Shown one piece after another: positions 4,817 to 16,288 of a DNA stretch of 64,000 bases (position 1 is its first letter; the number at the start of each line of letters is the position of its first letter). The notes below the pieces were generated by a model, which was not told where the DNA came from, searched no databases, and worked only from the letters and a program-made list of their open reading frames with translations. The stretch is from positions 23,442 through 87,441 of the forward strand of contig CAYZKY010000003.1 of NCBI GenBank assembly GCA_964478815.1, in the 5' to 3' direction. Source of the DNA: an uncultured Verrucomicrobiota bacterium (GTDB lineage: Bacteria > Verrucomicrobiota > Verrucomicrobiia > Limisphaerales > SXQI01). The translations under genes and the position numbers were made by a program.

Positions 4817-5119
4817 TCAAGCCCGCTGCAAGCGGCTTTTGCCGCCTCGCGAAACCGGCCGTCCATCAGTTCTCAACCACGCCGAACGAGCGAGGTGGAC
4901 GGCCTCGGCCAGCGCGTCTTTGGAAATCCTGCCCCCACCCCAGCGCGCCAGTATCACTTCCCAGGGATGCCCTGCCTCGATCTCCTCCAACACATCCGCG
5001 ACGAATACCCGCGTGCCTTTGAACGTGACCCGGCCATGACAAATCTCCGGATCGGCAACAATGTGTCGGCAGAGTTCGATCCGAACCGGTTTTTCACCAG
5101 GTTTTGCGGCGCGCGTCAT
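4817..5119 (-). CDS. DUF433-like (antitoxin-like HTH) small protein
   Basis: 100-aa ORF. The core ADPEICHGRVTFKGTRVFVADVLEEIEAGHPWEVILARW fits the DUF433 pattern as I remember it (dP-x3-G-x-P/V-x-x-GTR-x-V followed by a helical tail). No PIN or DUF5615-type partner ORF is adjacent. Confidence 0.65.
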   Translation of the reverse strand: MTRAAKPGEKPVRIELCRHIVADPEICHGRVTFKGTRVFVADVLEEIEAGHPWEVILARWGGGRISKDALAEAVHLARSAWLRTDGRPVSRGGKSRLQRA

Positions 5120-5193: not shown

Positions 5194-8100
5194 TCATGGC
5201 ACTGGCGGAGGTTCCTTCGCGGCGTCGCGCACGCTGCGGGCGAGTTCGATGGCTTGGTCCAAGGACGGTGCCGTAAGAGCTGGCGGAATTGCCCCTTTTG
5301 TTATTTCCAGGACATTCGAATTGGTGACACGAAAGACCGGTATCCGACTCCTCCGATAATCATCAAGTAGCTTCCAAGGAGTACCGCCGAACATGACTGC
5401 GTCTATCCCGGAGGGCAATGCCGTGTGAACCAACACGATCGTAGGCCGAAAATAGCTTTGCATATCATACACGAGTCGGTCGATGGTTCCTGTATCTCCC
5501 GCGATGGGACAAATCGCGTGTTTGGCGCTGGGCTGCCAGCCAAAAAAATCTCCGCCATGCGGGGCTAAAAACAATACCTGCTCTCCCTCCCGTTTCTGCC
5601 GTGGCCGAAGTTTTCCTCCCACGCCCAGAAAAGCGTAGATAGCCGACTTCAACTCCTGCGCCTCCGTGTCGGCCAGCCGCCACAGCTCATCGAGCGTCAG
5701 ATCGTCCAGGAACGCCACGGGAGCCGGGCCCATCAACGCCAGACGGAAGTCATCCAGCTTCGGCTCGAATACGGATTGGTAACCGAATGACGTGCCCTTG
5801 AAGGCCTCGGTCCAGCGTAGGTACGCCTCCGTCGTGTAAATCGATCTTCCTCCGAAAGCGTGCTTCCAGAGTAGGTCGCCGCCCCGCTCGATCACCTCGG
5901 CGAGTGGTTTAAGCCACTTGGGCAGATCCTCCAGTGCGACACGTAGCGCCGGTTCGAAAATCTGTCGTGTCTCCGCCGAAAGTTCCTTCCACAGTTCATC
6001 GACAACTTTCTCGAGGAACTTGTCGCCCGTCTCGAGAGAGAGCTTACCGAGGGAGAGAATTCGAGAAACCGCCGCCAGACCCGCCCCCATGCCCCGGCCC
6101 GGCGAACCATAAAGCTGGTGGCGGGAAATCCCAATGGCCAGCAGCAGAGCGCGCCGCAAGGGCTGCCCCCGCCGCCGCAACATGCTTTCGTAAAAGAGCA
6201 CCGTCGCGATTTCGTCCTTCAACTGATCCCGCCGCGCCCCTGGCGCTGCCACGCGCCCGATGGCTGGAATCACGCTCGACCACGGCGGCGAAAGATCGAG
6301 AATCCGGTACCGCTCCGCCAGCGTGCCGGGGTCGATGTCCGACCCGAACCCTTCCAGCTCGGCGCAAACTTCCTCGATCCAATTCGCGGCGCGCTTTGCG
6401 TCCTGAAAACGAGCCTCCTCATCCGGCCCTTGCGCCGCCACCGGCGCGCTCGCAGGCAGCGTGGGAGGGGTGCTCGGCGAGACAGCACTTCCAAGTGTTC
6501 TCGGCTCCGGCACAGGCGCAATGTTGGCAAAATGTTCGAACAATGGCTTCTCTTCGCCCAAGCCCAGACCGGCTTTCACCTGCGGGATCTTCAGAGTCAG
6601 GACAGACAACGGAGCATCCGGCACCAGAATTCCGATTGCCGGAGGGACCGCCGCTTCACCGGCGTCCATGGGAACCGATATCCCCGGTTCCGTCGCGGCT
6701 GGTGGCGCTGGTTCCGGTGGCACCGGCACGCGATCGCCGAAAGGATCAACTTCCCACCGCCATTTTTTATGAGGCTCGCCTGCCGAAATGAGGTACGGCT
6801 CCAATATGTCGAGATTGAAGTCTTCCACCTGAGCCCGCGGGAAGCTCAGAATAAAGGCGTTGGGATTATTCAGTATTTTAATTAGATCGCCCAAAGCGTT
6901 CTCGAGTAGGTTCCAACTCGGGCCGGAGATCAATTTGCCAATGATTTTTTCTCGCCGCTTATCGGTTCTATCCACTCCTTCCCCCGAATCCAGCCGTCCC
7001 TCCAAGTGTAGCTGAAGGGCATTCCGGCTGATGTCGAGTTGCTCGCTGGCTTCGTTCCAGCGTCGCGCCGGGTAGTACAAAGTATCTAGGAGGAATCGGC
7101 CGAATTGGGGGTCTTGTCGCAACCGCTCGCGCAGCTCGCTCTTCTTCAACACTTCCTCCACGGCGAATTGCATGAAGGCTCGCCGTTGAAACCCGCGTAG
7201 GTTTCGAATCTCGCCTGGCTCCAGGACGCATTGCCCATCGCCGTTAGTGAAAGCGAGGAATCGACGGCGCAGTGCAATCGGGCTGCTGTACGCCCCTTGC
7301 AGCAGCACCGTGCAGAGAAAGTCGTAGTCGCGATCCTCGATTGTCCGCACTATTTCAGACGGAGTGGTTGGCTCGGGCACTGGCGTAGCAGGAAGCTCAG
7401 CGCCAGCCGCCTTTTCTATCTGGAGAATCCGCTGGACGTGCGCCCGCAGTTGACCTGGAAGGTAATGGATGAAAAGTCGGTCACTGAAAAACGTGAAGTC
7501 TCTGCTGTACTGCCCGTGGCGCCCTTGCGCGGTAATCGTCTCGAAATACGCCCGGTCGCACAAAAAGCAGAAGAATGCCCGCTCCGTCACGAAGTGCTTC
7601 AGATGCGCGATGAGCACTTCCATTTCTTTTTCGAGCTTGTCCACCTTGTCCAGCTCATCGATCACAAAGATCGGCGCCAGCCCCGCTTGCACCATCCGCT
7701 CCACCAGCACCGGCAACATCCGATCCAGCGACTCGACCGAGGTATCCCATGTGAACACCCGATTGCTATCCCGCGTCGTCTTGCGCGTATTCTTGCTGGT
7801 TATGCTCAAGGTCAACGCCGTCCCCAACGCCGTCCCCAGCCCCAACAGGGCGGCCACCAACGGATCCTTCCCCTGCACCAGCGCGCCCATTCCCAGCAAT
7901 CCGCCCGCCAGCACGGTCAACAACGGGTTGAGCAGATCCTTGATTACCGGCCGCAGGCCAAAGTCCGAGACTTGTTCGAGCACCGAATTTCGCGTTTGCG
8001 TGTCGACGCCCGTCAGCTTCCCCGCCACCAATTGGAACGCCTCGATCGCGCTGGCCATCGCCACCAGCTCCCGCGTGCCCTGGCCCTTCGGCAACTTTTT

Positions 8101-8781
8101 GGTCCATTCGCCGCGCCCGGCCCTCAGCACCCCCGAATCGAGCGCTCCCACCAGCCGCCAATGGTTGCGCAGCGTCGCCAGCTCCGGCGCATGATCGAGC
8201 TCCTGCTCCAGGTGCGCCGCCAGCTCCAGCCAATCCTCCTTGCGGTTTCCGTCCGCCGGAGCCTGCGCTTCCACATGCCGCCGAAACTGCCGCCCCATCT
8301 CATCCATCAGCGCCCGGTGCAAACTCTTGGCCAGCACCTTCAGCACCGCCGCGACCGGGCTATTTTTCGCTTCCACCGATTTTCCGTCAGACCCCGCCTG
8401 ATCTGCCCCGTCCCCGTCCGTTGGCGTTTCGCTTGTTGTCTCCCCTTTGGCCGCCGCCGCTTGCCGACGCTCGTCCGTCTCCACCGCGTTAAAAAGATCA
8501 GGCCCATGCAGCGGAATGAACATTGGCCACAGCTTCCACTTCTCACCCGAAGTCGCCTCCATCGCCCGCCGCTGGCTCTCATGCACCGCCCAGCGCACCA
8601 TCGTGGTCTTGCCCGATCCGCGATGCCCCGCGATCAGGAACGATCGCCCGTTGGTCTCCTTGTTGGCGTACCGCTCGATCTCCCGCAGCAACGTTTCGTA
8701 GGCGTCGGACTTCGCCAGTGTCGGCTGCTGTTTCCAGCTCGCTTCGCTCAGCGGCTCCGGCGTCTCCTTTAGCGAAATCAT
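5194..8781 (-). CDS. 1195-aa P-loop NTPase with a hydrophobic two-helix hairpin inserted inside the NTPase domain (KAP-like topology) and a long uncharacterised C-terminal region
   Basis: Walker A is GHRGSGKTT (aa 52-60, nt 8602-8628). An acidic/Gly low-complexity stretch covers aa ~100-140. Two hydrophobic helices, LLNPLLTVLAGGLLGMGALV and LVAALLGLGTALGTALTLSI (aa ~283-327, nt 7801-7935), are separated by QGKDP. Walker B is IFVIDELDKV (aa 371-380, nt ~7642-7671). A sensor-1-like strand AFFCFLCD follows. The start overlaps the upstream gene stop (ATGA at 8778-8781). Confidence 0.85.
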   Translation of the reverse strand: MISLKETPEPLSEASWKQQPTLAKSDAYETLLREIERYANKETNGRSFLIAGHRGSGKTTMVRWAVHESQRRAMEATSGEKWKLWPMFIPLHGPDLFNAVETDERRQAAAAKGETTSETPTDGDGADQAGSDGKSVEAKNSPVAAVLKVLAKSLHRALMDEMGRQFRRHVEAQAPADGNRKEDWLELAAHLEQELDHAPELATLRNHWRLVGALDSGVLRAGRGEWTKKLPKGQGTRELVAMASAIEAFQLVAGKLTGVDTQTRNSVLEQVSDFGLRPVIKDLLNPLLTVLAGGLLGMGALVQGKDPLVAALLGLGTALGTALTLSITSKNTRKTTRDSNRVFTWDTSVESLDRMLPVLVERMVQAGLAPIFVIDELDKVDKLEKEMEVLIAHLKHFVTERAFFCFLCDRAYFETITAQGRHGQYSRDFTFFSDRLFIHYLPGQLRAHVQRILQIEKAAGAELPATPVPEPTTPSEIVRTIEDRDYDFLCTVLLQGAYSSPIALRRRFLAFTNGDGQCVLEPGEIRNLRGFQRRAFMQFAVEEVLKKSELRERLRQDPQFGRFLLDTLYYPARRWNEASEQLDISRNALQLHLEGRLDSGEGVDRTDKRREKIIGKLISGPSWNLLENALGDLIKILNNPNAFILSFPRAQVEDFNLDILEPYLISAGEPHKKWRWEVDPFGDRVPVPPEPAPPAATEPGISVPMDAGEAAVPPAIGILVPDAPLSVLTLKIPQVKAGLGLGEEKPLFEHFANIAPVPEPRTLGSAVSPSTPPTLPASAPVAAQGPDEEARFQDAKRAANWIEEVCAELEGFGSDIDPGTLAERYRILDLSPPWSSVIPAIGRVAAPGARRDQLKDEIATVLFYESMLRRRGQPLRRALLLAIGISRHQLYGSPGRGMGAGLAAVSRILSLGKLSLETGDKFLEKVVDELWKELSAETRQIFEPALRVALEDLPKWLKPLAEVIERGGDLLWKHAFGGRSIYTTEAYLRWTEAFKGTSFGYQSVFEPKLDDFRLALMGPAPVAFLDDLTLDELWRLADTEAQELKSAIYAFLGVGGKLRPRQKREGEQVLFLAPHGGDFFGWQPSAKHAICPIAGDTGTIDRLVYDMQSYFRPTIVLVHTALPSGIDAVMFGGTPWKLLDDYRRSRIPVFRVTNSNVLEITKGAIPPALTAPSLDQAIELARSVRDAAKEPPPVP

Positions 8782-9299
8782 TTGGTCCCCTGCGGCTCTT
8801 CCTTCGCTTTCGGCGGCACGTTCGAAACCACGGTCGCCGGCTTCGCTGGTTTCTCCGCTGCGTTGCCTTCATTCAAGAATGCCGCGCCCAGCGTGCCGAG
8901 CTGCGACACCGCCGCCAGCAAGATGACGCCCAGCAAAACCATGGCCACGAGGAGCACCATCGAGCGCGAGATCGACCACCCGCTCACCCCGCCACCCAAG
9001 CCGCCCCAATGCACCTCGAACTGCGGCGCTCCTTCCGTCCGCACCGCCTCCTCCAGCTTCGTCCCCAGTTTGCGTCCCAGCGAGACCACGGCCATTAACG
9101 CGGCCACCACGCCCGCGATTCCCAGCACCCCCACCGCCCCCTTCAGCCACGATAGCTCCCCTTGCCACACCGCCCCGACGATCATGGCGATCCCCAGCAA
9201 AACGGTCACCAGCAGCAACGTCCCCAACACCTCCGTCACCTCGCCCTTCGACGCCGGCGGCCCGCTCGAACCCGGTTCTTCAGATGCATTCATGGTCAA
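8778..9299 (-). CDS. Small integral membrane protein (about 3 TM helices), function unknown
   Basis: 173-aa ORF with three hydrophobic segments (LGTLLLVTVLLGIAMIVGAV, VLGIAGVVAALMAVVSL, MVLLVAMVLLGVILLAAV) and a Lys/Pro-rich C-terminal tail. It is translationally coupled to the downstream NTPase by a 4-nt overlap. Confidence 0.7.
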   Translation of the reverse strand: MTMNASEEPGSSGPPASKGEVTEVLGTLLLVTVLLGIAMIVGAVWQGELSWLKGAVGVLGIAGVVAALMAVVSLGRKLGTKLEEAVRTEGAPQFEVHWGGLGGGVSGWSISRSMVLLVAMVLLGVILLAAVSQLGTLGAAFLNEGNAAEKPAKPATVVSNVPPKAKEEPQGTK

Positions 9300-9403: not shown

Positions 9404-10897
9404 TCAAGAGAGCAGAATCTTGACGGCTCTGAGGAAGGACGGGACGGCGGTCACGAGGAATCCGAGGCCGTTCAGGGCGAGGCCGACGACGGCGGCGCGC
9501 CAGCCGCGACCGGCGAGGTGGAAGCCGAACGCGTCCTGCAGAGCAAGAGCACCGCAGATCAAGCCGATGAACCAAATGATGCCCGCGAAGGGCAGCGGGC
9601 TAAAGGCGAACCACGCGAGCCAGCCGGCGACCCCGCACCCGATGCTGAGCCACGCCGAATAGTTTTCCCGGGCCGGGAATCCGGCAAAGCCCCGCGGTTT
9701 CGGGCGGGTGCGCCCGGTGGAGGAGGGCATCCGCTGCAACGGGACAGGCGGCGCGGGGAGATTCGGCCGCGTATTGGGTGGGAGTGGGATGGGCCTCGCC
9801 TGGCCGCTGGTGCGTGGCGGAGCCACGGCCGGACCGATATGCGTTCCGGCGGTGACCGACGAGGCGGAGGGAAACGGATCGCGACCGCCGAGGAGCTTGG
9901 TGCGCCGACACCAGGGGCATTCGGTCAGGTGGCCGCTGTAGATGTGCTGGTCGTTCGCCCAACAACTGACGAGCGCTGTCTCGGCTTCCTCGAGTCCCCA
10001 TTGCCAGGCGGAGGTGTCGGGCCGGGCCGACGGGTGGGAATGCCCGTCTTGAAAGCATCGGACGAATAGATGTTGCAACGCCGGATAGAGCATTTCGAGC
10101 GGAGGCGCGGTCGGTTTGGCGGTGTAGGGGACGCCGGCTCCGGCGGCGTAGGGAAAGTGGCCGGCGGCGATCCGGGCTTCCAGCGGCGGGGATTCGCCGT
10201 GACCGGTGAAGTTGCCGGAGAAAGGATGGGTGCCTTCCATGAGCAACTGGAAGAGCAAGGTGCTGAGGCCGAACAGATCGTGCTGCACATTGCGGTCGAA
10301 CTGGCCGAAGGTCTTGCCTTGCAGCTCGGGCGGCGTGAAGTCGGGCTTGCCGACGCGACATCGGTAGACCCGGCCCTTCTCAGCATCCCAGACCTGGAAC
10401 GAATCCGTATCGACGACCGTGACGAGCGCGGTTTCCGCGACGAGAATATTCGACTCATTCAGATCGCCGACCACATAGCCGCGCTCGTGCAAGGCGCGGA
10501 GCGCGATGACCAGATTCCGGGCGGTGCGGTGAAGATAGAAATGATTGAAGAGCGGACAGGTCTGGCGGCGCGTCTTGGGATTGAAAAAGTCGATGATCGG
10601 GCGCATGCCGCCGACGAAGGGCATGAGGAATCCGACGACCGTCCCGCGGGCGTCGGCCACGGTTTCGGATGGCCAGGCGATCGAGGTGTGGTGCTGGGCG
10701 GCGGTGGGATCGAGGGGCGGGTTGCGCACCATAGCCTCCACTTTGGCGGCGCGCTCGGGGGTGGGCTTGTGCCAGACCTTGGCGACTAGGGTGGGATCGG
10801 TGGGCACCCGATAGACCAGCGCCTCGCCCCCCTTGCCGAGAAGGGCGGAGTTATCCAGCGTCAGAATCTCGCCGGTGACTGTGCGTCGCACACGCAT
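9404..10897 (-). CDS. Atypical Ser/Thr protein kinase with a C-terminal multi-TM anchor
   Basis: 497-aa ORF with a Gly loop GKGGEALVY, VAKVW lysine, catalytic loop GDLNESNILV (in place of HRDLKPxN), VDTDSF (DFG equivalent) and FTPPE (APE equivalent). A CPWC motif and a Pro-rich linker follow. The last ~110 aa carry 3-4 hydrophobic helices (WLSIGCGVAGWLAWFAF, FAGIIWFIGLICGALAL, AAVVGLALNGLGFLVTAV). Confidence 0.85.
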   Translation of the reverse strand: MRVRRTVTGEILTLDNSALLGKGGEALVYRVPTDPTLVAKVWHKPTPERAAKVEAMVRNPPLDPTAAQHHTSIAWPSETVADARGTVVGFLMPFVGGMRPIIDFFNPKTRRQTCPLFNHFYLHRTARNLVIALRALHERGYVVGDLNESNILVAETALVTVVDTDSFQVWDAEKGRVYRCRVGKPDFTPPELQGKTFGQFDRNVQHDLFGLSTLLFQLLMEGTHPFSGNFTGHGESPPLEARIAAGHFPYAAGAGVPYTAKPTAPPLEMLYPALQHLFVRCFQDGHSHPSARPDTSAWQWGLEEAETALVSCWANDQHIYSGHLTECPWCRRTKLLGGRDPFPSASSVTAGTHIGPAVAPPRTSGQARPIPLPPNTRPNLPAPPVPLQRMPSSTGRTRPKPRGFAGFPARENYSAWLSIGCGVAGWLAWFAFSPLPFAGIIWFIGLICGALALQDAFGFHLAGRGWRAAVVGLALNGLGFLVTAVPSFLRAVKILLS

Positions 10898-10905
10898 GGG
10901 CGGGG

Positions 10906-11655
10906 TCAGGGTTTCGCGAGGGTGGCGAGCAGGAGGGTGAGGTCGTCATCCGCGCGCTGGGCGATGCGTGGGGAGGTCAGAAACTTCTCGAACTGGTGGC
11001 GGCGCTCGTCGTCGTTCGGTTCACCCGCCACGAAATGGAAGAGGGGGTCGAAGAATCGCTCGTGGGGCGTGGCCTCGGGCATTTTGAGCGCCAACATCTG
11101 AAGGCCATCGGTAAACATGGCCGCTCGTGAGATGGGACCGGAGACGCTGGCGAATTGCGCGTGATCGAGCGCGCTCTCAATGGTGAGAAACAGCGTCTCG
11201 TTCAGGTACTCGGCAGCCGGAGGCCGGGTCAGCGAACGAAGCCCATTCGACCCGGAGACGAGGGCGGCTCCATCGCCGATCTGGAGGGCAGCCGCATGAT
11301 CCGGGGTGGCGGCAAGGAGCATGAGCGTGCAGGCCAGATCCCGGAGCTCGCACTTCGAACGGATCGATTCGGCGGCAAGCGCATCGCGCGCTTGCTGGAA
11401 CGCGCTTCGCAGGAGGCTTTCCAGGCGGCTCGGCGCAAGCGACCCGGCGGCGGCGGCTTCGAGGTGCTTCAAGCCGGTTCGCACCGCCAAGCCCGCGCCG
11501 ACTTCGGCGAGGCGGGCCGAACCCGCGCCATCCGCCACCGCGGCCAGCAGCATCGGCCCGTTCGCAGAACTCCAGGCCAGCGCGTCCTGGCAAGGGAGAT
11601 TGGCGCGGGCGTGACTGACGCCCTGGACGGAAACGCCGGTGACACGCCAGTTCAT
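10906..11655 (-). CDS. PP2C-type (PPM, PP2C_2-like) Ser/Thr phosphatase
   Basis: 249-aa ORF with GVSVQGVSHARANLPCQDA, AVADGAGSA, IGDGA and FTDGL motifs, typical of the bacterial PP2C_2 family. It ends 8 nt before the kinase start. Confidence 0.85.
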   Translation of the reverse strand: MNWRVTGVSVQGVSHARANLPCQDALAWSSANGPMLLAAVADGAGSARLAEVGAGLAVRTGLKHLEAAAAGSLAPSRLESLLRSAFQQARDALAAESIRSKCELRDLACTLMLLAATPDHAAALQIGDGAALVSGSNGLRSLTRPPAAEYLNETLFLTIESALDHAQFASVSGPISRAAMFTDGLQMLALKMPEATPHERFFDPLFHFVAGEPNDDERRHQFEKFLTSPRIAQRADDDLTLLLATLAKP

Positions 11656-11871: not shown

Positions 11872-14800
11872 TCAGGGCCGGACATTCAAGCGCAGGAAGA
11901 GAGCCGGCTGGCCGGGAATGCGGATGCCCCACGTCTCGCGCGAACGGCTCGAATCGATCGGTTCGCTGCGGAGGAATCCCGCCGGGAACCAAGTGGAGAG
12001 GTCCATGGAGGCTTCGCAGGTCAGTGGCGCATCGTCGGCCAGGACGTTCCGGGGGAACGACAAGGTCAGCGTTCCATCCAGAAGCACACTTGCTTCAACG
12101 GCTCCGAGCCCAGCCGCGGGGTCCGTATCGCTGGTGCCCAACGCGTACTCGACGATGGCGGGGAAACCATCGGCGTCGCGATCTTCGGCTGGGTCTCCGG
12201 CAAAATGGGTGCTATCGGGCGCACCCGGGGCTCCGCCGGAGATGCCGCTGGCCCGCCAGGCCAAAGGGTTTTCCTGACCCAATTCGGGCCGAGCGAAGAC
12301 GAGCGTTTGATTGGTGGACGCCAACGGCCAGGAGCCGCCGAAGCTGTAGGCGAAAGATGCGATCAGATTCGTGCCGGCCATCCACGTCAATTGCTCGCCC
12401 GTGCGCGATAGCGCGCCCGCGTAAACGCCCGCGACCGGCACCTCGAGTCCGTAGCGCCGTTGGAAGCGGAAGAGATCTTCGACCAGCACCAGGCGTTCGC
12501 CGGGAGCCACCAGCGTGTCGCGCCGCTCCGGGAACGCAAACCGGATTCCTTCCGTGAAACGAACGCCGCGCAAGTTCAGGGCGCGCGGGGACCGATTCGC
12601 GATTTCGACGAACTCGCCTCCGCCGCGCTCCAGGTCGTAATTCAATTCCGAGATGACCAGCTCGCCCGGAGCGATCGCTTCGGAGCCCACCTGGAAGAAG
12701 GCTTCGTTCAGAGCCGACCACTCGTTGCCGTCCTTCGTCCGGGCCTTGACGATGGTGTTCCGCGCCAGAGGCGGCGGCGCATTCGAGGTTTGCGGAGCGT
12801 TGGAGCGAAACACCTGCAAATCCAGATCGAAGCTGGTATCCGAGCTGGTCGCGCCGGCTTGATGCAGTTCCACGGCGACGACATTTCGTCCCGCCACGAG
12901 GAGCGAAGCAGGGATGGTGAACGCACTGAAACCCTGACCATCATCGGAGATCGATTCGGCCAATGTCGATCCGGTGACCACGCCCGCAGGCAGCGCGGAC
13001 CGAACAGCTTCCCGGCCATTGATGTAGACAATCGCGCCATCGTCGCGCTTCAAGCGAAGCTCGACCGACGCAATGTTCTGGAGATTCGCCAGATCGAATC
13101 GATGCCGGTAATAGGACGAAATCCACTTCGCATTGGCGTCTGGCCCAAATGGAATGACCGTTGCCTCGTCCCCTTCCCCATAACCAAACTGAGCCGCGCC
13201 TTCGCGCCAGGCTGCATCGTTGAAATCGGGGTGCTTCCAATTGGAGGCGGTCCACCCGGCGGCCCCATTCACGACAGCGCTGCTGCCCAGCCCGGCGGCA
13301 TCCGTAAACCACCGCCAGCGGGCGCCGGCGGGAATAATCGTCTCGCCCGCCTGGCCGGAGGAGATGACCGCGGCGCGCGGCGAGGCGGCGCCACCGGGCA
13401 ATCGCGGATCGCTCCCATCCAATGTGTAATAAAGAGAGCCGCGGCGGGGCGGCGTGAAGACGATCTGGAAGCCTTCCTCCACCACGCCGCCCTGGCGGTT
13501 CAGAACCGGACGATCCAACGCGGGGTAAAAGCCCGCCGAACGGTAATCGGCGAGCACCTGCGTGGTGCGGCCCGGCAGCCAGGAGTTGAGCGCGTTGTCG
13601 CGGCGGCTGGCCCATTCCGCCGGCGTCAGATAATTCCAGCGGGCGGACTCGGCCAGGAAGGCCCGCTGGATTTGATCGGTGCGGGCCCGAAGCCGGGCGA
13701 TATTCCGGCTGGAAGTGAGCGCGCCATCCCCGACCAGCGCCCGGCCGATCCGGTCGGCCAGCAGCACGCGATAGTCCGGATGTCCCTCTCGAAAGAGCAT
13801 GGAAAAGATGCTGCCGGGACCATCGCCGCCGGACCGGCCGGGCGCGCCGCGCCCCGTGCGATTGCCGGCGGCACAATAGTACGGCCCGCAGAACCAGCCG
13901 TCCGCATCGTTGAGATAGAACTTGAAGCCGCTGCCTGGAACGTTCGGGCCGACGCAGCGGTACTCGTCCTCCGCGCCGCCGAACATCCACATGAGCATGA
14001 AGTCGACATACTGCGGCACATCGAGCAGGTCCTTGACCTTGGCGTAGTTGCCGCGATCCCGCTTGATCTGCGCCCACACGCTTCCATCTCCATCGTAAGC
14101 CGTCCCGGGCTCGGCCCAGCCGCCGACGTTCCAATTGCCGTTAATCGATTCGTAGTCGTCCTTCGAGCCACCGAGATAACTCTCGTGCATGGCGGCGCCC
14201 CAGCGTTCCCGCAGATGATAAAGGCCCCAGTACGTGCCGTTGAGATACATGTGCACGAAACGTCCGTGAGGATTGAGCTGGCCCATCTCGAGCATCGTGT
14301 CGTCCACGAAGATGTTCGAGAGATAAAACCCGCGCATTTCCATGTCGTGCGAGCCCGAGCGCAATTCGAGCTGGTCGAATTCCTGCGCCGGCGCGAGGTC
14401 TTGGGGATAATCGTCGAAGAGGGGCCAGCGCAGTTTCTCGGCCCCATGTTCCGCGCGAAAGTAGAGCCGGAAATTCTTCTTCGCGAAGTCCGTGAATGCG
14501 CCGCCGAAATTGCGCACGCCGCAGTCCTCCTGCGTATTGGCCGTGCCATCCGTACGCAGCCACTCGAACGAGGCTTTGGCCTCGCTCGTGCCGGTCACCC
14601 CCGTAGTGGTAACGATCGAAACGGTTGGAACATCCAGCAACCCGGAGCGAACCTGCGGCCCGTAGGTGGCGTGGCGCGTCACGGTCGTTCGCATGACGGA
14701 AGAGGCGATGACATTACTCAGGAACAGGTAAGTGTGCGTATCGACATCGGTCGGTGCCCAATCCGCCTTGAACGCTGCAGCCCGCAGCACAGTGGTATTC

Positions 14801-16185
14801 GTGATGGCGATCGGCCCAGTGTACAGAAGGCCGGTTGTGGCGGTAGGCCGGGTGCGATTGGTGGTGTACCGGATCACCGCGTCTGCCGTCTCGGTGGTGA
14901 TAGTCACATGGAAGTTCGTGTCATAAAAACCCCGGTCGTGGCTGAACTTGGTATCGGCCACCACTCCCGGAAAGACCGGCCCGTTGGTCGCGCCCGGCGT
15001 CGGCGGACGCAAAAAGCCAAGCGTGCCGCCGCTGCCCAAACCGTAACCGATGTTCTTCGGGAGTTTCGGAAAGATCGGCGTTTCCGGATAATCCGCCGGG
15101 AACTGCTGGACGACCTTCGCGCCATCGGTGAGGGCCAGATATTCGCCATCGAGATCGAGGCGGAAATTGGTGTGCCATTCCGTGTCCCGGCGATCCTTGC
15201 CCGAGGCGAAGACGATGAGGAACCCATGCGCCGCCAGCCGCCGCTGGGGAAACGGCCACAGGGCCGGACGGCGCGGATCGTCGGTGAGCGCGAACCCTTC
15301 GAGCTGAATCGCGAATGGATTCGGATTGCGGATCTCGATCCAGTCCGGGGTGTCGCCATCGGCGTCCTTGAGGCCGCCCTGGTTGTCGGCGATGAATTCG
15401 TTGATCTCGGGAGGCAGCGCCGTCGCGTTGACCGAGACCTGCGCAAACGCAGACGCGCTGGCTCCCCCGTTCGAGGCGGTCAGGGTGTAGGTGGTGGAGC
15501 GATCCGGACGGACTTCGATCTGCCCCTGCGTGGCCTCCACCGCTCCGGGGAAAGGCGAAATGGTCGCCGAAGTCGCCCCCAGAATCTCCCAGCGCAACAC
15601 GCTCGGTTCCCCGGCGACGATCGCGTCCGGCTCGGCCTGGAACACGCGAATCTGGGGCGGCGGGATGCCATAGGCCTCCAGCTCCGCGATCTGCGGATTG
15701 TAGGCCGCGTCGCTTAAGTTAACGATTCGAATGAATCGCCCGGCGAAGGAACCGGCTGGATCGGCATTGCCCCGCACGATATCGACGCCCGAGACTCCCG
15801 AGTGGCTCCCATCCGTGCGCACCGCGGCCCGCCAGTTCCGCGCGCCGGACTCGCCTCCGGCATCGGCGTACAGTTCGACCGCGAAGTTGCTCAAACGCTC
15901 CGGGCAGCAGCCATCGGCGCGATTTCGCAAAACGATGCGATCCAATTCGTAGGTGCTCCCGAGATCGACCTCGAAGTAGTAACCCAGCGTGTCCGACCCG
16001 GCGAGCGGGTGCGAGAAGGTCGAAGGATCGCCATCCGTCACCCCTTCCGGCTGCAAACCATTCCAGGTCGCCCCCGAAACTTCGACCGGCGCGTTGAGCG
16101 CCAGATTGCCCTGCGCTTCCGCACGCCACCCAGCCGCCACCCAGGCGATAAGCGCCACCATTCCCAAAATCGATCGTTTCATCAT
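11872..16185 (-). CDS. Large secreted protein with an F5/8 type C (discoidin)-like domain, lamin-tail domains and a CotH kinase-like domain
   Basis: Signal peptide MMKRSILGMVALIAWVAAGWRAEAQG. I placed the start at the first ATG, with GGAGAG upstream; the track uses a GTG at 16194. A discoidin-like N-terminus is present (GVTDGDPSTFSHP...YFEVDLGSTYELDRIVLRNR). LTD motifs are INEFIADNQGG...DWIEIRNPN and VISELNYD...EFVEIANRS. The CotH-like core reads FRLYFRAEHG...ELRSGSHD...MYLNGTYWGLYHLRERW. Confidence 0.85.
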   Translation of the reverse strand: MMKRSILGMVALIAWVAAGWRAEAQGNLALNAPVEVSGATWNGLQPEGVTDGDPSTFSHPLAGSDTLGYYFEVDLGSTYELDRIVLRNRADGCCPERLSNFAVELYADAGGESGARNWRAAVRTDGSHSGVSGVDIVRGNADPAGSFAGRFIRIVNLSDAAYNPQIAELEAYGIPPPQIRVFQAEPDAIVAGEPSVLRWEILGATSATISPFPGAVEATQGQIEVRPDRSTTYTLTASNGGASASAFAQVSVNATALPPEINEFIADNQGGLKDADGDTPDWIEIRNPNPFAIQLEGFALTDDPRRPALWPFPQRRLAAHGFLIVFASGKDRRDTEWHTNFRLDLDGEYLALTDGAKVVQQFPADYPETPIFPKLPKNIGYGLGSGGTLGFLRPPTPGATNGPVFPGVVADTKFSHDRGFYDTNFHVTITTETADAVIRYTTNRTRPTATTGLLYTGPIAITNTTVLRAAAFKADWAPTDVDTHTYLFLSNVIASSVMRTTVTRHATYGPQVRSGLLDVPTVSIVTTTGVTGTSEAKASFEWLRTDGTANTQEDCGVRNFGGAFTDFAKKNFRLYFRAEHGAEKLRWPLFDDYPQDLAPAQEFDQLELRSGSHDMEMRGFYLSNIFVDDTMLEMGQLNPHGRFVHMYLNGTYWGLYHLRERWGAAMHESYLGGSKDDYESINGNWNVGGWAEPGTAYDGDGSVWAQIKRDRGNYAKVKDLLDVPQYVDFMLMWMFGGAEDEYRCVGPNVPGSGFKFYLNDADGWFCGPYYCAAGNRTGRGAPGRSGGDGPGSIFSMLFREGHPDYRVLLADRIGRALVGDGALTSSRNIARLRARTDQIQRAFLAESARWNYLTPAEWASRRDNALNSWLPGRTTQVLADYRSAGFYPALDRPVLNRQGGVVEEGFQIVFTPPRRGSLYYTLDGSDPRLPGGAASPRAAVISSGQAGETIIPAGARWRWFTDAAGLGSSAVVNGAAGWTASNWKHPDFNDAAWREGAAQFGYGEGDEATVIPFGPDANAKWISSYYRHRFDLANLQNIASVELRLKRDDGAIVYINGREAVRSALPAGVVTGSTLAESISDDGQGFSAFTIPASLLVAGRNVVAVELHQAGATSSDTSFDLDLQVFRSNAPQTSNAPPPLARNTIVKARTKDGNEWSALNEAFFQVGSEAIAPGELVISELNYDLERGGGEFVEIANRSPRALNLRGVRFTEGIRFAFPERRDTLVAPGERLVLVEDLFRFQRRYGLEVPVAGVYAGALSRTGEQLTWMAGTNLIASFAYSFGGSWPLASTNQTLVFARPELGQENPLAWRASGISGGAPGAPDSTHFAGDPAEDRDADGFPAIVEYALGTSDTDPAAGLGAVEASVLLDGTLTLSFPRNVLADDAPLTCEASMDLSTWFPAGFLRSEPIDSSRSRETWGIRIPGQPALFLRLNVRP

Positions 16186-16288
16186 GTCGCACACTCTCCG
16201 GCCGAACCCGGATGCTAATCCAAAAACACAGCAGGTTCCGCACCCGCCTGACTATTGCCCAAAACGCCGCTTCTTGTAAGGTATCGGC

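What the first reader, a model, noticed from the sequence alone, without database searches (positions are those of the whole stretch)
7801..7935. Hydrophobic two-helix hairpin inserted between Walker A and Walker B of the 1195-aa NTPase (KAP-like topology)
Seen in sequence: Walker A GHRGSGKTT is at aa 52-60 and Walker B IFVIDELDKV at aa 371-380, about 310 residues apart. The insert contains an acidic low-complexity stretch and two ~20-residue hydrophobic segments (LLNPLLTVLAGGLLGMGALV and LVAALLGLGTALGTALTLSI). These are joined by a short polar turn, QGKDP. Established knowledge: transmembrane helices inserted within the P-loop domain are the defining oddity of the KAP family of NTPases. That family is sporadically distributed and often plasmid-borne or disrupted in prokaryotes. 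Inference: this protein is a KAP-like membrane-inserted NTPase. The assignment rests on topology only, not on a profile match.
Basis: partly seen in the sequence, partly recalled or inferred. Interest (0 to 1): 0.6.

Follow-up and report, generated by a model that had tools for sequence, protein, structure and literature searches.

The report
Membrane-hairpin AAA+ ATPase with small partner
A 1195-residue ATPase carries a conserved, uncharged two-helix hydrophobic hairpin inside its ATP-binding domain and is always encoded next to a small membrane protein; it is an undescribed family that resembles, but by every profile test run here does not belong to, the two known families of membrane-inserted P-loop ATPases (KAP and YobI/Tmn).

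Summary
Walker A is at aa 52-60 and Walker B at aa 371-380. The two hydrophobic segments (aa 283-302 and 308-327) lie exactly at window 7801-7935 on the minus strand.

The hairpin is not a chance feature:
- In 117 homologues (25-40% identical), positions 283-325 carry almost no charged residues.
- G293 is invariant, and small residues recur every four positions on both helices.
- The flanks are basic, and the turn is 3-11 residues.

The KAP assignment is not supported. PF07693 does not match, although PifA, used as a control, scores 3e-43. A profile-profile comparison with the PifA clade gives 10% probability. Pfam and PADLOC returned no YobI or Tmn match. The core looks like an ORC/Cdc6/RFC/RdrA-type AAA+ fold. 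The insert sits between strand β2 and helix α2.

New findings:
- 73 of 84 loci have a small polytopic membrane protein directly upstream, with a WGGxGGGxGGW loop. In the window its stop overlaps the ATPase start (ATGA).
- The family is small (about 800-1200 clusters at 50% identity), sporadic and chromosomal, and was not matched by Pfam, NCBIfam or PADLOC.

I read it as a third, independent lineage of membrane-inserted P-loop ATPase acting with a membrane partner. Membrane insertion and function remain inferred.

The parts
5194..8781 (-). Gene for the 1195-aa ATPase (stop codon included).
   Evidence: An identical protein, P0001, is in NCBI. 317 homologues were found, and 822 clusters at 50% identity score E<=1e-30.
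8602..8646 (-). Strand β1 plus Walker A, GHRGSGKTT (aa 46-60).
   Evidence: G52, R54, G55, G57 and K58 are invariant.
8506..8529 (-). Core strand β2 (aa 85-92). The large insert starts immediately after it.
   Evidence: The AF2 model has E85-92 at pLDDT above 90.
8362..8490 (-). Acidic low-complexity loop (aa 98-140).
   Evidence: Sequence. pLDDT is below 50 for aa 119-133.
8023..8361 (-). Confidently modelled helical bundle within the insert (aa 141-253).
   Evidence: Helices 141-173, 178-195, 201-210 and 234-253, pLDDT mostly above 90. E186 and E238 are invariant.
7801..7935 (-). Conserved uncharged two-helix hydrophobic hairpin with small-xxx-small ladders (aa 283-327). This is the finding.
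   Evidence: Helices 284-302 and 307-322 are present in the model, with low pLDDT.
7759..7800 (-). Basic, Ser/Thr-rich flank after helix 2 (aa 328-341; family consensus K-Y-S-S-S-R-S-R-x-R).
   Evidence: Column frequencies.
7642..7737 (-). Helix α2 plus strand β3 with Walker B, IFVIDELDKV (aa 349-380).
   Evidence: E376, L377, D378 and K379 are invariant.
7546..7575 (-). Strand β4 and the putative sensor-1 region, FFCFLCDRAY (aa 403-412).
   Evidence: E403-407 in the model. C405, F406, R410 and Y412 are invariant, and D409 is nearly so. The sensor-1 role is inferred.
6826..7341 (-). Helical domain after the core, a putative AAA+ lid (aa 481-652).
   Evidence: Model helices 481-644 at high pLDDT. 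D503 and R506 are nearly invariant, and D566 and R596 are invariant.
6427..6687 (-). Proline-rich disordered linker (aa 699-785).
   Evidence: pLDDT is about 30. It coincides with the point where the gene is split in other genomes.
5197..6426 (-). C-terminal module: a helical array followed by a small α/β domain (aa 786-1195).
   Evidence: Separate AF2 model, pLDDT 88.4. No PDB fold match at E<1e-3 and no Pfam match. It is encoded as a separate downstream ORF in at least 10 loci.
8778..9293 (-). Gene for the 171-aa polytopic membrane partner. Its stop overlaps the ATPase start (ATGA).
   Evidence: A partner HMM finds an upstream, same-strand ORF in 73 of 84 loci. Intergenic distances are mostly -4 to +30 nt.
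8976..9011 (-). Partner signature loop, HWGGLGGGVSGW (partner aa 95-106), just before its last transmembrane helix.
   Evidence: The family consensus is e-s-h-W-G-G-l-G-G-g-l-g-G-W-r-x-S. Exactly one hydrophobic helix follows the motif in 49 of 50 partners.

Best explanation
The protein is a member of an undescribed family of AAA+-like P-loop ATPases, with an ORC/Cdc6/RFC/RdrA-type core. A roughly 255-residue insert lies between core strand β2 and helix α2. The insert consists of an acidic loop, a helical bundle, and a conserved Gly/Ala/Leu-rich uncharged helical hairpin on flexible linkers.

Inferred steps:
- The hairpin most likely dips into or spans the cytoplasmic membrane. Both ends and the whole ATPase stay in the cytoplasm, and only a 3-11 residue turn is on the far side.
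- There it most likely works with the small polytopic membrane protein encoded immediately upstream, which carries the WGGxGGGxGGW loop.
- The β2-α2 position is where AAA+ pore loops and the initiator-specific motif sit, facing the ring axis. ATP-dependent oligomerisation would therefore bring the small-xxx-small hairpins together into a bundle coaxial with the ATPase ring. ATP binding and hydrolysis would then be coupled to a change in the membrane, such as permeability, ion or solute movement, or assembly of the partner.
- The C-terminal module, separable and encoded as its own gene in some genomes, would act as the regulatory or sensing part.

The trait is analogous to KAP and YobI/Tmn, but on the profile evidence it was acquired independently.

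Shown: the motifs, conservation, insert position, partner linkage, the absence of KAP, YobI or Tmn profile matches, and family size and distribution. Inferred: membrane insertion, oligomerisation, interaction with the partner, and the output.
For: - Coordinates and hydrophobicity.
- Family-wide conservation of an uncharged 43-residue stretch: invariant G293, small-residue ladders at 289/293/297 and 310/314/318/322, basic flanks and a short turn.
- AF2 model: core strands 46-52, 85-92, 368-375, 403-407 and 434-438 at pLDDT above 90. The hairpin helices 284-302 and 307-322 sit on low-confidence linkers, so they are not modelled as part of the core.
- Catalytic residues are conserved: K58, D375, E376, R410.
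- Partner protein: found upstream on the same strand in 73 of 84 loci, at -4 to +30 nt, with an ATGA overlap in the window. It has strongly hydrophobic helices.
- Nearest sequence and fold neighbours are AAA_16, ORC4, Cdc6, RFC and RdrA.
- KAP excluded at profile level. Pfam and PADLOC gave no YobI or Tmn match.
- Precedent that hairpins between Walker A and Walker B anchor P-loop ATPases and form oligomeric membrane hubs: Tmn (PMC13001434) and Kidins220 (PMC10707181).
Against: - No dedicated transmembrane predictor could be run.
- A simple sum on the Hessa biological scale is positive for both helices (family medians +4.1 and +2.8), so unassisted translocon insertion is doubtful.
- AF2 confidence for the hairpin helices themselves is low, pLDDT below 50.
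- All fold and sequence matches of the core are weak, none at E<1e-3, so the clade assignment within AAA+/STAND is approximate.
- Oligomeric state, contact with the partner and any membrane effect are untested.
Confidence: 0.6

Rival explanations
1. It is a divergent member of the KAP family (Kidins220/ARMS-PifA). The hairpin would be homologous to the KAP transmembrane insert.
For: - The hydrophobic helices lie between Walker A and Walker B, as in Kidins220 (PMC10707181).
- The phyletic distribution is sporadic.
- 2 of 40 family members give a sub-threshold PF07693 hit, best E 0.0043.
- A giant-virus KAP protein appears at rank 6 of the viral fold search, E 0.53.
Against: - PF07693 does not match the window protein at E<=1, while PifA scores 3.2e-43.
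- hhalign against the PifA clade gives 10% probability, with only the Walker A region aligned.
- AAA_16 hits 38 of 40 members, and ORC/Cdc6, RFC and RdrA rank above KAP.
- The family is not plasmid- or phage-borne.
Confidence: 0.06
2. It is a very divergent member of the YobI/Tmn family, in which two transmembrane helices are embedded in the P-loop domain and followed by a long, variable helical C-terminus. It would work like Tmn: a decameric membrane hub that exports Mg2+ on phage sensing.
For: - Same gross plan as described for Tmn: two helices after Walker A, about 1200-1270 aa, and a variable α-helical C-terminal region (PMC13001434, PMC13552941).
- The conserved Walker motifs imply an active ATPase.
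Against: - PADLOC, which the Tmn study used to find Tmn, gave no Tmn hit at E<=1.
- No YobI family was listed among the Pfam or NCBIfam matches.
- Tmn is described there as a self-contained defence system, whereas this family has an obligate membrane partner.
- There is no defence-island or mobile-element context.
- No Tmn sequence or structure was available for a direct profile or fold comparison, so this rival is only weakly tested.
Confidence: 0.1
3. The hairpin is not a membrane element. It would be a hydrophobic Gly/Ala-rich helical hairpin that packs into a soluble oligomer (for example lining the axial channel of an AAA+ ring) or sits only peripherally on the membrane. The upstream membrane protein would then be merely a docking site or functionally unrelated.
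For: - Marginal Hessa sums.
- Low pLDDT for the helices.
- High Ala/Gly/Thr content: A 23%, G 17%, T 8%.
- The insert sits at the AAA+ pore-loop position, which faces the ring axis (established AAA+ topology applied to the secondary-structure order).
Against: - Complete absence of charge over 43 aligned positions in 117 diverged sequences, with basic residues exactly at both ends.
- Each helix is 18-20 residues long.
- These are the two best Wimley-White windows in the protein, and both exceed KD 1.6.
- Tight, near-universal coupling to an integral membrane protein.
Confidence: 0.2

Closest known systems
KAP family P-loop NTPases (Pfam PF07693; Kidins220/ARMS, PifA)
   Same: - P-loop NTPase with hydrophobic helices between Walker A and Walker B, and the catalytic domain on the cytoplasmic side.
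- Large multidomain protein.
- Sporadic distribution.
   Different: - No profile match.
- One hairpin rather than the two or four helices of KAP (from my recollection of Aravind et al. 2004, which could not be read here).
- An obligate small membrane partner.
- Chromosomal, not plasmid-borne.
YobI/Tmn family (anti-phage transmembrane NTPase)
   Same: - Exactly two helices embedded in the P-loop domain after Walker A.
- About 1200 aa with a helical, variable C-terminal region.
- ATPase motifs intact.
- Tmn shows that such a design can form an oligomeric membrane hub (PMC13001434).
   Different: - No PADLOC or Pfam model match.
- A two-gene module with a partner.
- A large helical bundle precedes the hairpin.
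- No link to plasmids, prophages or defence genes in 95 neighbouring genes.
ORC/Cdc6/RFC-type AAA+ ATPases and RdrA of the RADAR system (PDB 8hr8; Pfam AAA_16 and ATPase_2)
   Same: - Best, though weak, sequence and fold neighbours of the core.
- The secondary-structure order β1-α1-β2-[insert]-α2-β3-α3-β4-α4-β5 followed by a helical domain.
- The insertion point matches that of the initiator-specific motif and pore loop 1 (established AAA+ topology).
   Different: - Those proteins are soluble.
- None has a hydrophobic hairpin or a membrane partner.
- All matches are below significance or below the Pfam gathering thresholds.

Membership tests
KAP NTPase (PF07693) | Significant match to the KAP_NTPase profile. 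| tested here: not met
   No hit at E<=1 for the window protein. 2 of 40 relatives hit, best E 0.0043. The PifA control scores 3.2e-43. hhalign against the PifA clade gives 10% probability over 43 columns.
KAP NTPase (PF07693) | Transmembrane helices (two or four) inserted in the P-loop domain between Walker A and Walker B. | tested here: inconclusive
   A conserved uncharged hairpin is present between the motifs. Simple hydrophobicity scales disagree: KD and Wimley-White pass, the Hessa sum is marginal. No dedicated predictor was available.
KAP NTPase (PF07693) | Frequently plasmid-borne or disrupted in prokaryotes. | tested here: not met
   1 of 72,556 plasmid records (a 1.95-Mb Burkholderia replicon) and 0 phage records hold a relative. 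The window gene is intact.
YobI/Tmn | Match to the Tmn (PADLOC) or YobI (Pfam) profile. | tested here: not met
   No such family is listed at E<=1 in PADLOC or Pfam. No direct profile-profile test was done, because no Tmn sequence was at hand.
YobI/Tmn | Two transmembrane helices within the P-loop domain after Walker A. | tested here: inconclusive
   The topology is met. Membrane insertion is not demonstrated.
YobI/Tmn | Decameric membrane hub; ATP-dependent Mg2+ export on phage sensing. | not testable with these tools
   Needs biochemistry or cryo-EM (PMC13001434 for Tmn).
AAA+ / AAA_16-type ATPase | Walker A lysine and Walker B acidic pair. | tested here: met
   K58, D375 and E376 are conserved, the first and last invariant.
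AAA+ / AAA_16-type ATPase | Five-stranded core followed by a helical lid domain. | tested here: met
   AF2 secondary-structure order and confidence.
AAA+ / AAA_16-type ATPase | Profile match above the curated threshold. | tested here: not met
   AAA_16 scores 28.2 bits against a cut-off of 32.6 for the window protein. It hits 38 of 40 relatives weakly, best 9.2e-8. PDB profile search: ORC4 at E 0.0035.

The most novel reading that the evidence does not exclude
The two-gene module would be a new kind of ATP-driven membrane machine. An AAA+ ring would use its pore-loop-position hairpins, together with the WGGxGGGxGGW partner, to build a coaxial glycine-zipper channel. ATP binding and hydrolysis would gate this channel under control of the detachable C-terminal module. 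It would be a third, independently evolved solution to coupling a P-loop ATPase directly to the membrane. Its role could be abortive-infection-type immunity like PifA and Tmn, or regulated solute or ion release in soil bacteria.
Probability: 0.25. Interest if true: 0.8.

Novelty: new variant of a known kind. Interest (0 to 1): 0.6.

Why it matters
Only two lineages of P-loop NTPases with transmembrane helices inside the catalytic domain have been described: KAP and YobI/Tmn. Both are tied to signalling or anti-phage defence, and Tmn was recently shown to form an oligomeric membrane hub that exports Mg2+.

A third, profile-unrelated lineage would show that this design arose repeatedly. It has an AAA+ core, the insert at the pore-loop position, and a dedicated membrane partner. 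It offers a compact two-gene system in which to test how ATP hydrolysis is transmitted directly into a membrane helix bundle.

It also defines two protein families that Pfam, NCBIfam and PADLOC did not match: the ATPase and the WGGxGGGxGGW partner. Both are found in Acidobacteriota, Gemmatimonadota, Proteobacteria, Myxococcota, Planctomycetota and Verrucomicrobiota.

Tried and rejected
- **KAP membership.** Rejected on Pfam, with a PifA positive control, and on hhalign.
- **The PP2C phosphatase and protein kinase upstream (9404-11655) as part of the system.** phmmer finds no homologue of either in 83 other loci, so they are not part of the conserved module.
- **Defence-island context.** 95 immediate neighbours are diverse housekeeping genes. 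Only one methyltransferase and a few isolated PADLOC hits appeared, and no family recurred.
- **Function of the C-terminal module from fold.** No PDB match at E<1e-3. There is only a generic flavodoxin/receiver-like resemblance, and no Pfam match.
- **Homologue search with the partner protein.** It found only itself. A locally built HMM was needed to find the partner family.
- **Reading Aravind et al. 2004 (PMC416466).** The paper is not held, so statements about it rest on my memory and on citing papers.
- **Full-length Foldseek against PDB and BFVD.** All hits were weak.
- **Finding this family in the literature.** Nothing was found.
- **Source contig of P0001.** Not on record for the exact-sequence look-up, and the cluster carries no name.
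Full report
**Observation**

The minus-strand ORF 5194..8781 encodes a 1195-aa protein.
- Walker A, GHRGSGKTT: aa 52-60.
- Walker B, IFVIDELDKV: aa 371-380.
- Two hydrophobic segments: aa 283-302 and 308-327, joined by QGKDP. Together they map exactly to window 7801-7935.
- An acidic low-complexity stretch: aa 98-140.

Simple hydrophobicity scales do not agree. The two segments reach Kyte-Doolittle 19-residue means of 1.74 and 1.82. They are the two most favourable Wimley-White octanol windows of the protein, at -4.3 and -2.9 kcal/mol. A plain sum on the Hessa biological scale is marginal: +3.2 and +0.85 in the window, with family medians of +4.1 and +2.8. No dedicated transmembrane predictor was available.

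**Is it more than chance?**

Yes. A homologue search returned 317 proteins, mostly 1100-1250 aa. They were unnamed or labelled 'Cdc6-like AAA'. In an alignment of 117 N-terminal regions the hairpin aligns without gaps. Column statistics show:
- Essentially zero charged residues from position 283 to 325.
- An invariant G293.
- Small residues every four positions on both helices: 289/293/297 and 310/314/318/322. This is a glycine-zipper-like pattern.
- A conserved K-D before helix 1, and K326, R331, R333 and R335 after helix 2.
- A turn of 3-11 residues that is poor in K/R (0.27 on average, against 2.7 and 3.6 in the flanks).

This is the pattern expected of a helical hairpin whose two ends stay in the cytoplasm.

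**The fold around it**

An AlphaFold2 model built from 94 homologues has mean pLDDT 79.9. It gives a confident five-strand core:
- β1: aa 46-52, carrying Walker A.
- β2: aa 85-92.
- β3: aa 368-375, carrying Walker B.
- β4: aa 403-407.
- β5: aa 434-438.

A helical domain (aa 481-652) follows the core. Everything from aa 93 to 348 is therefore an insert between β2 and α2. The insert comprises the acidic loop, a confident helical bundle (aa 141-253), and the two hairpin helices (aa 284-302 and 307-322) on linkers with pLDDT below 50. The low confidence also means the model says little positive about it.

In established AAA+ topology, the β2-α2 position carries pore loop 1 or the initiator-specific motif and faces the ring axis. 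Applying that here is my inference.

The catalytic residues are conserved. K58, E376 and R410 are invariant, and D375 and D409 are nearly so. An active ATPase is therefore expected.

**Which family?**

- Pfam gives only sub-threshold N-terminal hits: AAA_16 at 3.2e-6 (28.2 bits against a cut-off of 32.6), plus ATPase_2, ORC-CDC6-like and AAA_22. KAP_NTPase does not appear.
- Across 40 relatives, AAA_16 hits 38. KAP_NTPase hits 2, with best E 0.0043.
- As a positive control, F-plasmid PifA (L085:12446-14671) scores 3.2e-43 on PF07693.
- hhalign of the family profile against a PifA-clade alignment aligns 43 columns around Walker A, at 10% probability.
- A family profile against PDB sequences finds ORC4 (E 0.0035) and RdrA, deposited as 'Archaeal ATPase' (E 0.13).
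- Foldseek of the full model finds nothing at E<1e-3. Its top hits are RdrA, p97, ClpB, Cdc6, ORC1 and RFC.
- In the viral library the best hit is an RFC large subunit (E 0.02). A giant-virus KAP protein comes only at rank 6 (E 0.53).
- PADLOC, which the Tmn study itself used to find Tmn, gives no Tmn hit. Pfam lists no YobI family.

The protein is therefore a topological analogue of KAP and YobI/Tmn. In both of those the transmembrane helices lie between or after the Walker motifs (PMC10707181, PMC13001434, PMC13552941). It is not a demonstrable member of either. I could not compare it directly with a Tmn alignment or structure, so a very remote link to YobI is not excluded.

**A conserved partner**

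The gene immediately upstream (8778..9293, minus strand) encodes a 171-aa protein with three strongly hydrophobic helices. Its stop overlaps the ATPase start codon, as ATGA.

The same arrangement appeared in the first two homologous loci examined. Both shared the loop motif (S/T)HWGG(L/F)GGGxGGW(R)xS. I then fetched 80 loci from species-representative genomes. A strict motif search found the loop upstream of the ATPase in about 40 loci. An HMM built from those seeds found an upstream, same-strand ORF in 73 of 84 loci. Three of the misses have no upstream DNA.

Gene spacing is mostly -4 to +30 nt. In the partner family the number of N-terminal helices varies from 1 to 5. The glycine-rich loop is followed by exactly one helix in 49 of 50 partners. 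This near-obligate linkage to an integral membrane protein is the strongest indirect support for a membrane location of the ATPase.

**What is not part of it**

The PP2C_2 phosphatase (10906-11655, E 5.6e-46) and the protein-kinase-like gene with a hydrophobic C-terminus (9404-10897) lie just upstream in the window. Neither has a homologue in the 83 other loci. An all-against-all comparison of 287 flanking genes found no recurrent neighbour apart from split-off C-terminal modules. Pfam and PADLOC scans of 95 immediate neighbours show diverse housekeeping genes and no enrichment of defence genes.

Only one plasmid record holds a relative, a 1.95-Mb Burkholderia replicon. No phage record does.

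**The C-terminal half**

A proline-rich disordered linker (aa 699-785) precedes a well-modelled module (aa 786-1195, pLDDT 88.4). The module is a helical array ending in a small α/β domain. It has no Pfam match and no significant PDB fold match.

In at least 10 loci this module is a separate ORF directly downstream of a shorter ATPase of about 720 aa. About a fifth of the listed family representatives end at that point. One homologue, P0051, carries WD40 repeats. The module therefore behaves as a separable subunit, plausibly regulatory or sensing. That role is inferred.

**Family size and spread**

An exhaustive profile search of 1.84 billion cluster representatives found 822 proteins at E<=1e-30 and 1225 at E<=1e-10. 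Among 185,579 species genomes, 107 stretches encode a relative. They are spread over Acidobacteriota, Gemmatimonadota, Alpha-, Beta- and Gammaproteobacteria, Myxococcota, Planctomycetota, Verrucomicrobiota and Bacteroidota. The family is small, discrete and sporadic. I found no paper describing it.

**Most likely mechanism** (inferred except where cited)

1. The ATPase sits on the inner face of the cytoplasmic membrane, held by the hairpin.
2. ATP-dependent oligomerisation is typical of its nearest structural neighbours and is shown for Tmn (PMC13001434). It would cluster the axis-facing hairpins, with their small-xxx-small faces, and the partner's last helix and glycine loop into a membrane bundle.
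3. The nucleotide state would then control a membrane property, under the influence of the C-terminal module.

Whether the biological role is immunity, as for PifA and Tmn, or something else is open. The sporadic distribution and variable C-terminus fit a conflict system. The absence of a mobile-element or defence context does not.

**Verdict**

- The 'KAP-like' reading is right as an analogy and wrong as a family assignment.
- What is really there is a two-gene module absent from the protein-family libraries searched (Pfam, NCBIfam, PADLOC) and from the literature searched. It represents a new variant of the known kind 'P-loop ATPase with membrane helices inside the catalytic domain'.

Noticed in passing
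window 9404-11655 (-): A PP2C_2 phosphatase (10906-11655, E 5.6e-46) lies 8 nt upstream of a 497-aa protein-kinase-like gene with a hydrophobic C-terminal region (9404-10897). Both are on the same strand, just upstream of the partner gene. Neither has a homologue in 83 other loci of the family. The contig of the 36%-identical relative P0003 has a 510-aa gene at the same place, but no DNA was available.
   Followed up: partly
L007:3862-5256, L011:12133-13389, L014:12058-13338, L044:6043-7284, L078:1073-2512 and others: In at least 10 genomes the C-terminal module (profile positions about 725-1150) is a separate ORF directly downstream of a shorter ATPase of about 720 aa. This makes a three-gene version of the module.
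   Followed up: partly
P0051 (1549 aa): This family member has WD40-type repeats annotated in its C-terminal part, reminiscent of STAND-type sensor domains.
   Followed up: no
window 4817-5119 (-): A 100-aa DUF433 protein (E 1e-10) is encoded 75 nt downstream of the ATPase on the same strand. It was not seen as a recurrent neighbour elsewhere.
   Followed up: partly
window 11872-16194 (-): A 1440-aa secreted-looking protein has F5/8 type C, CHB_HEX_C, CotH and two lamin-tail domains. It is unrelated to the finding.
   Followed up: no
window 6427-6687 (-), aa 699-785: A long Pro/Ala-rich disordered linker (pLDDT about 30) separates the ATPase half from the C-terminal module. Its length and sequence vary across the family.
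   Followed up: no
L002:6762-7091 and L002:11503-12012: In one Acidobacteriaceae locus, further small membrane proteins flank the module. One of them (169 aa) resembles the N-terminal part of that locus's partner protein.
   Followed up: no
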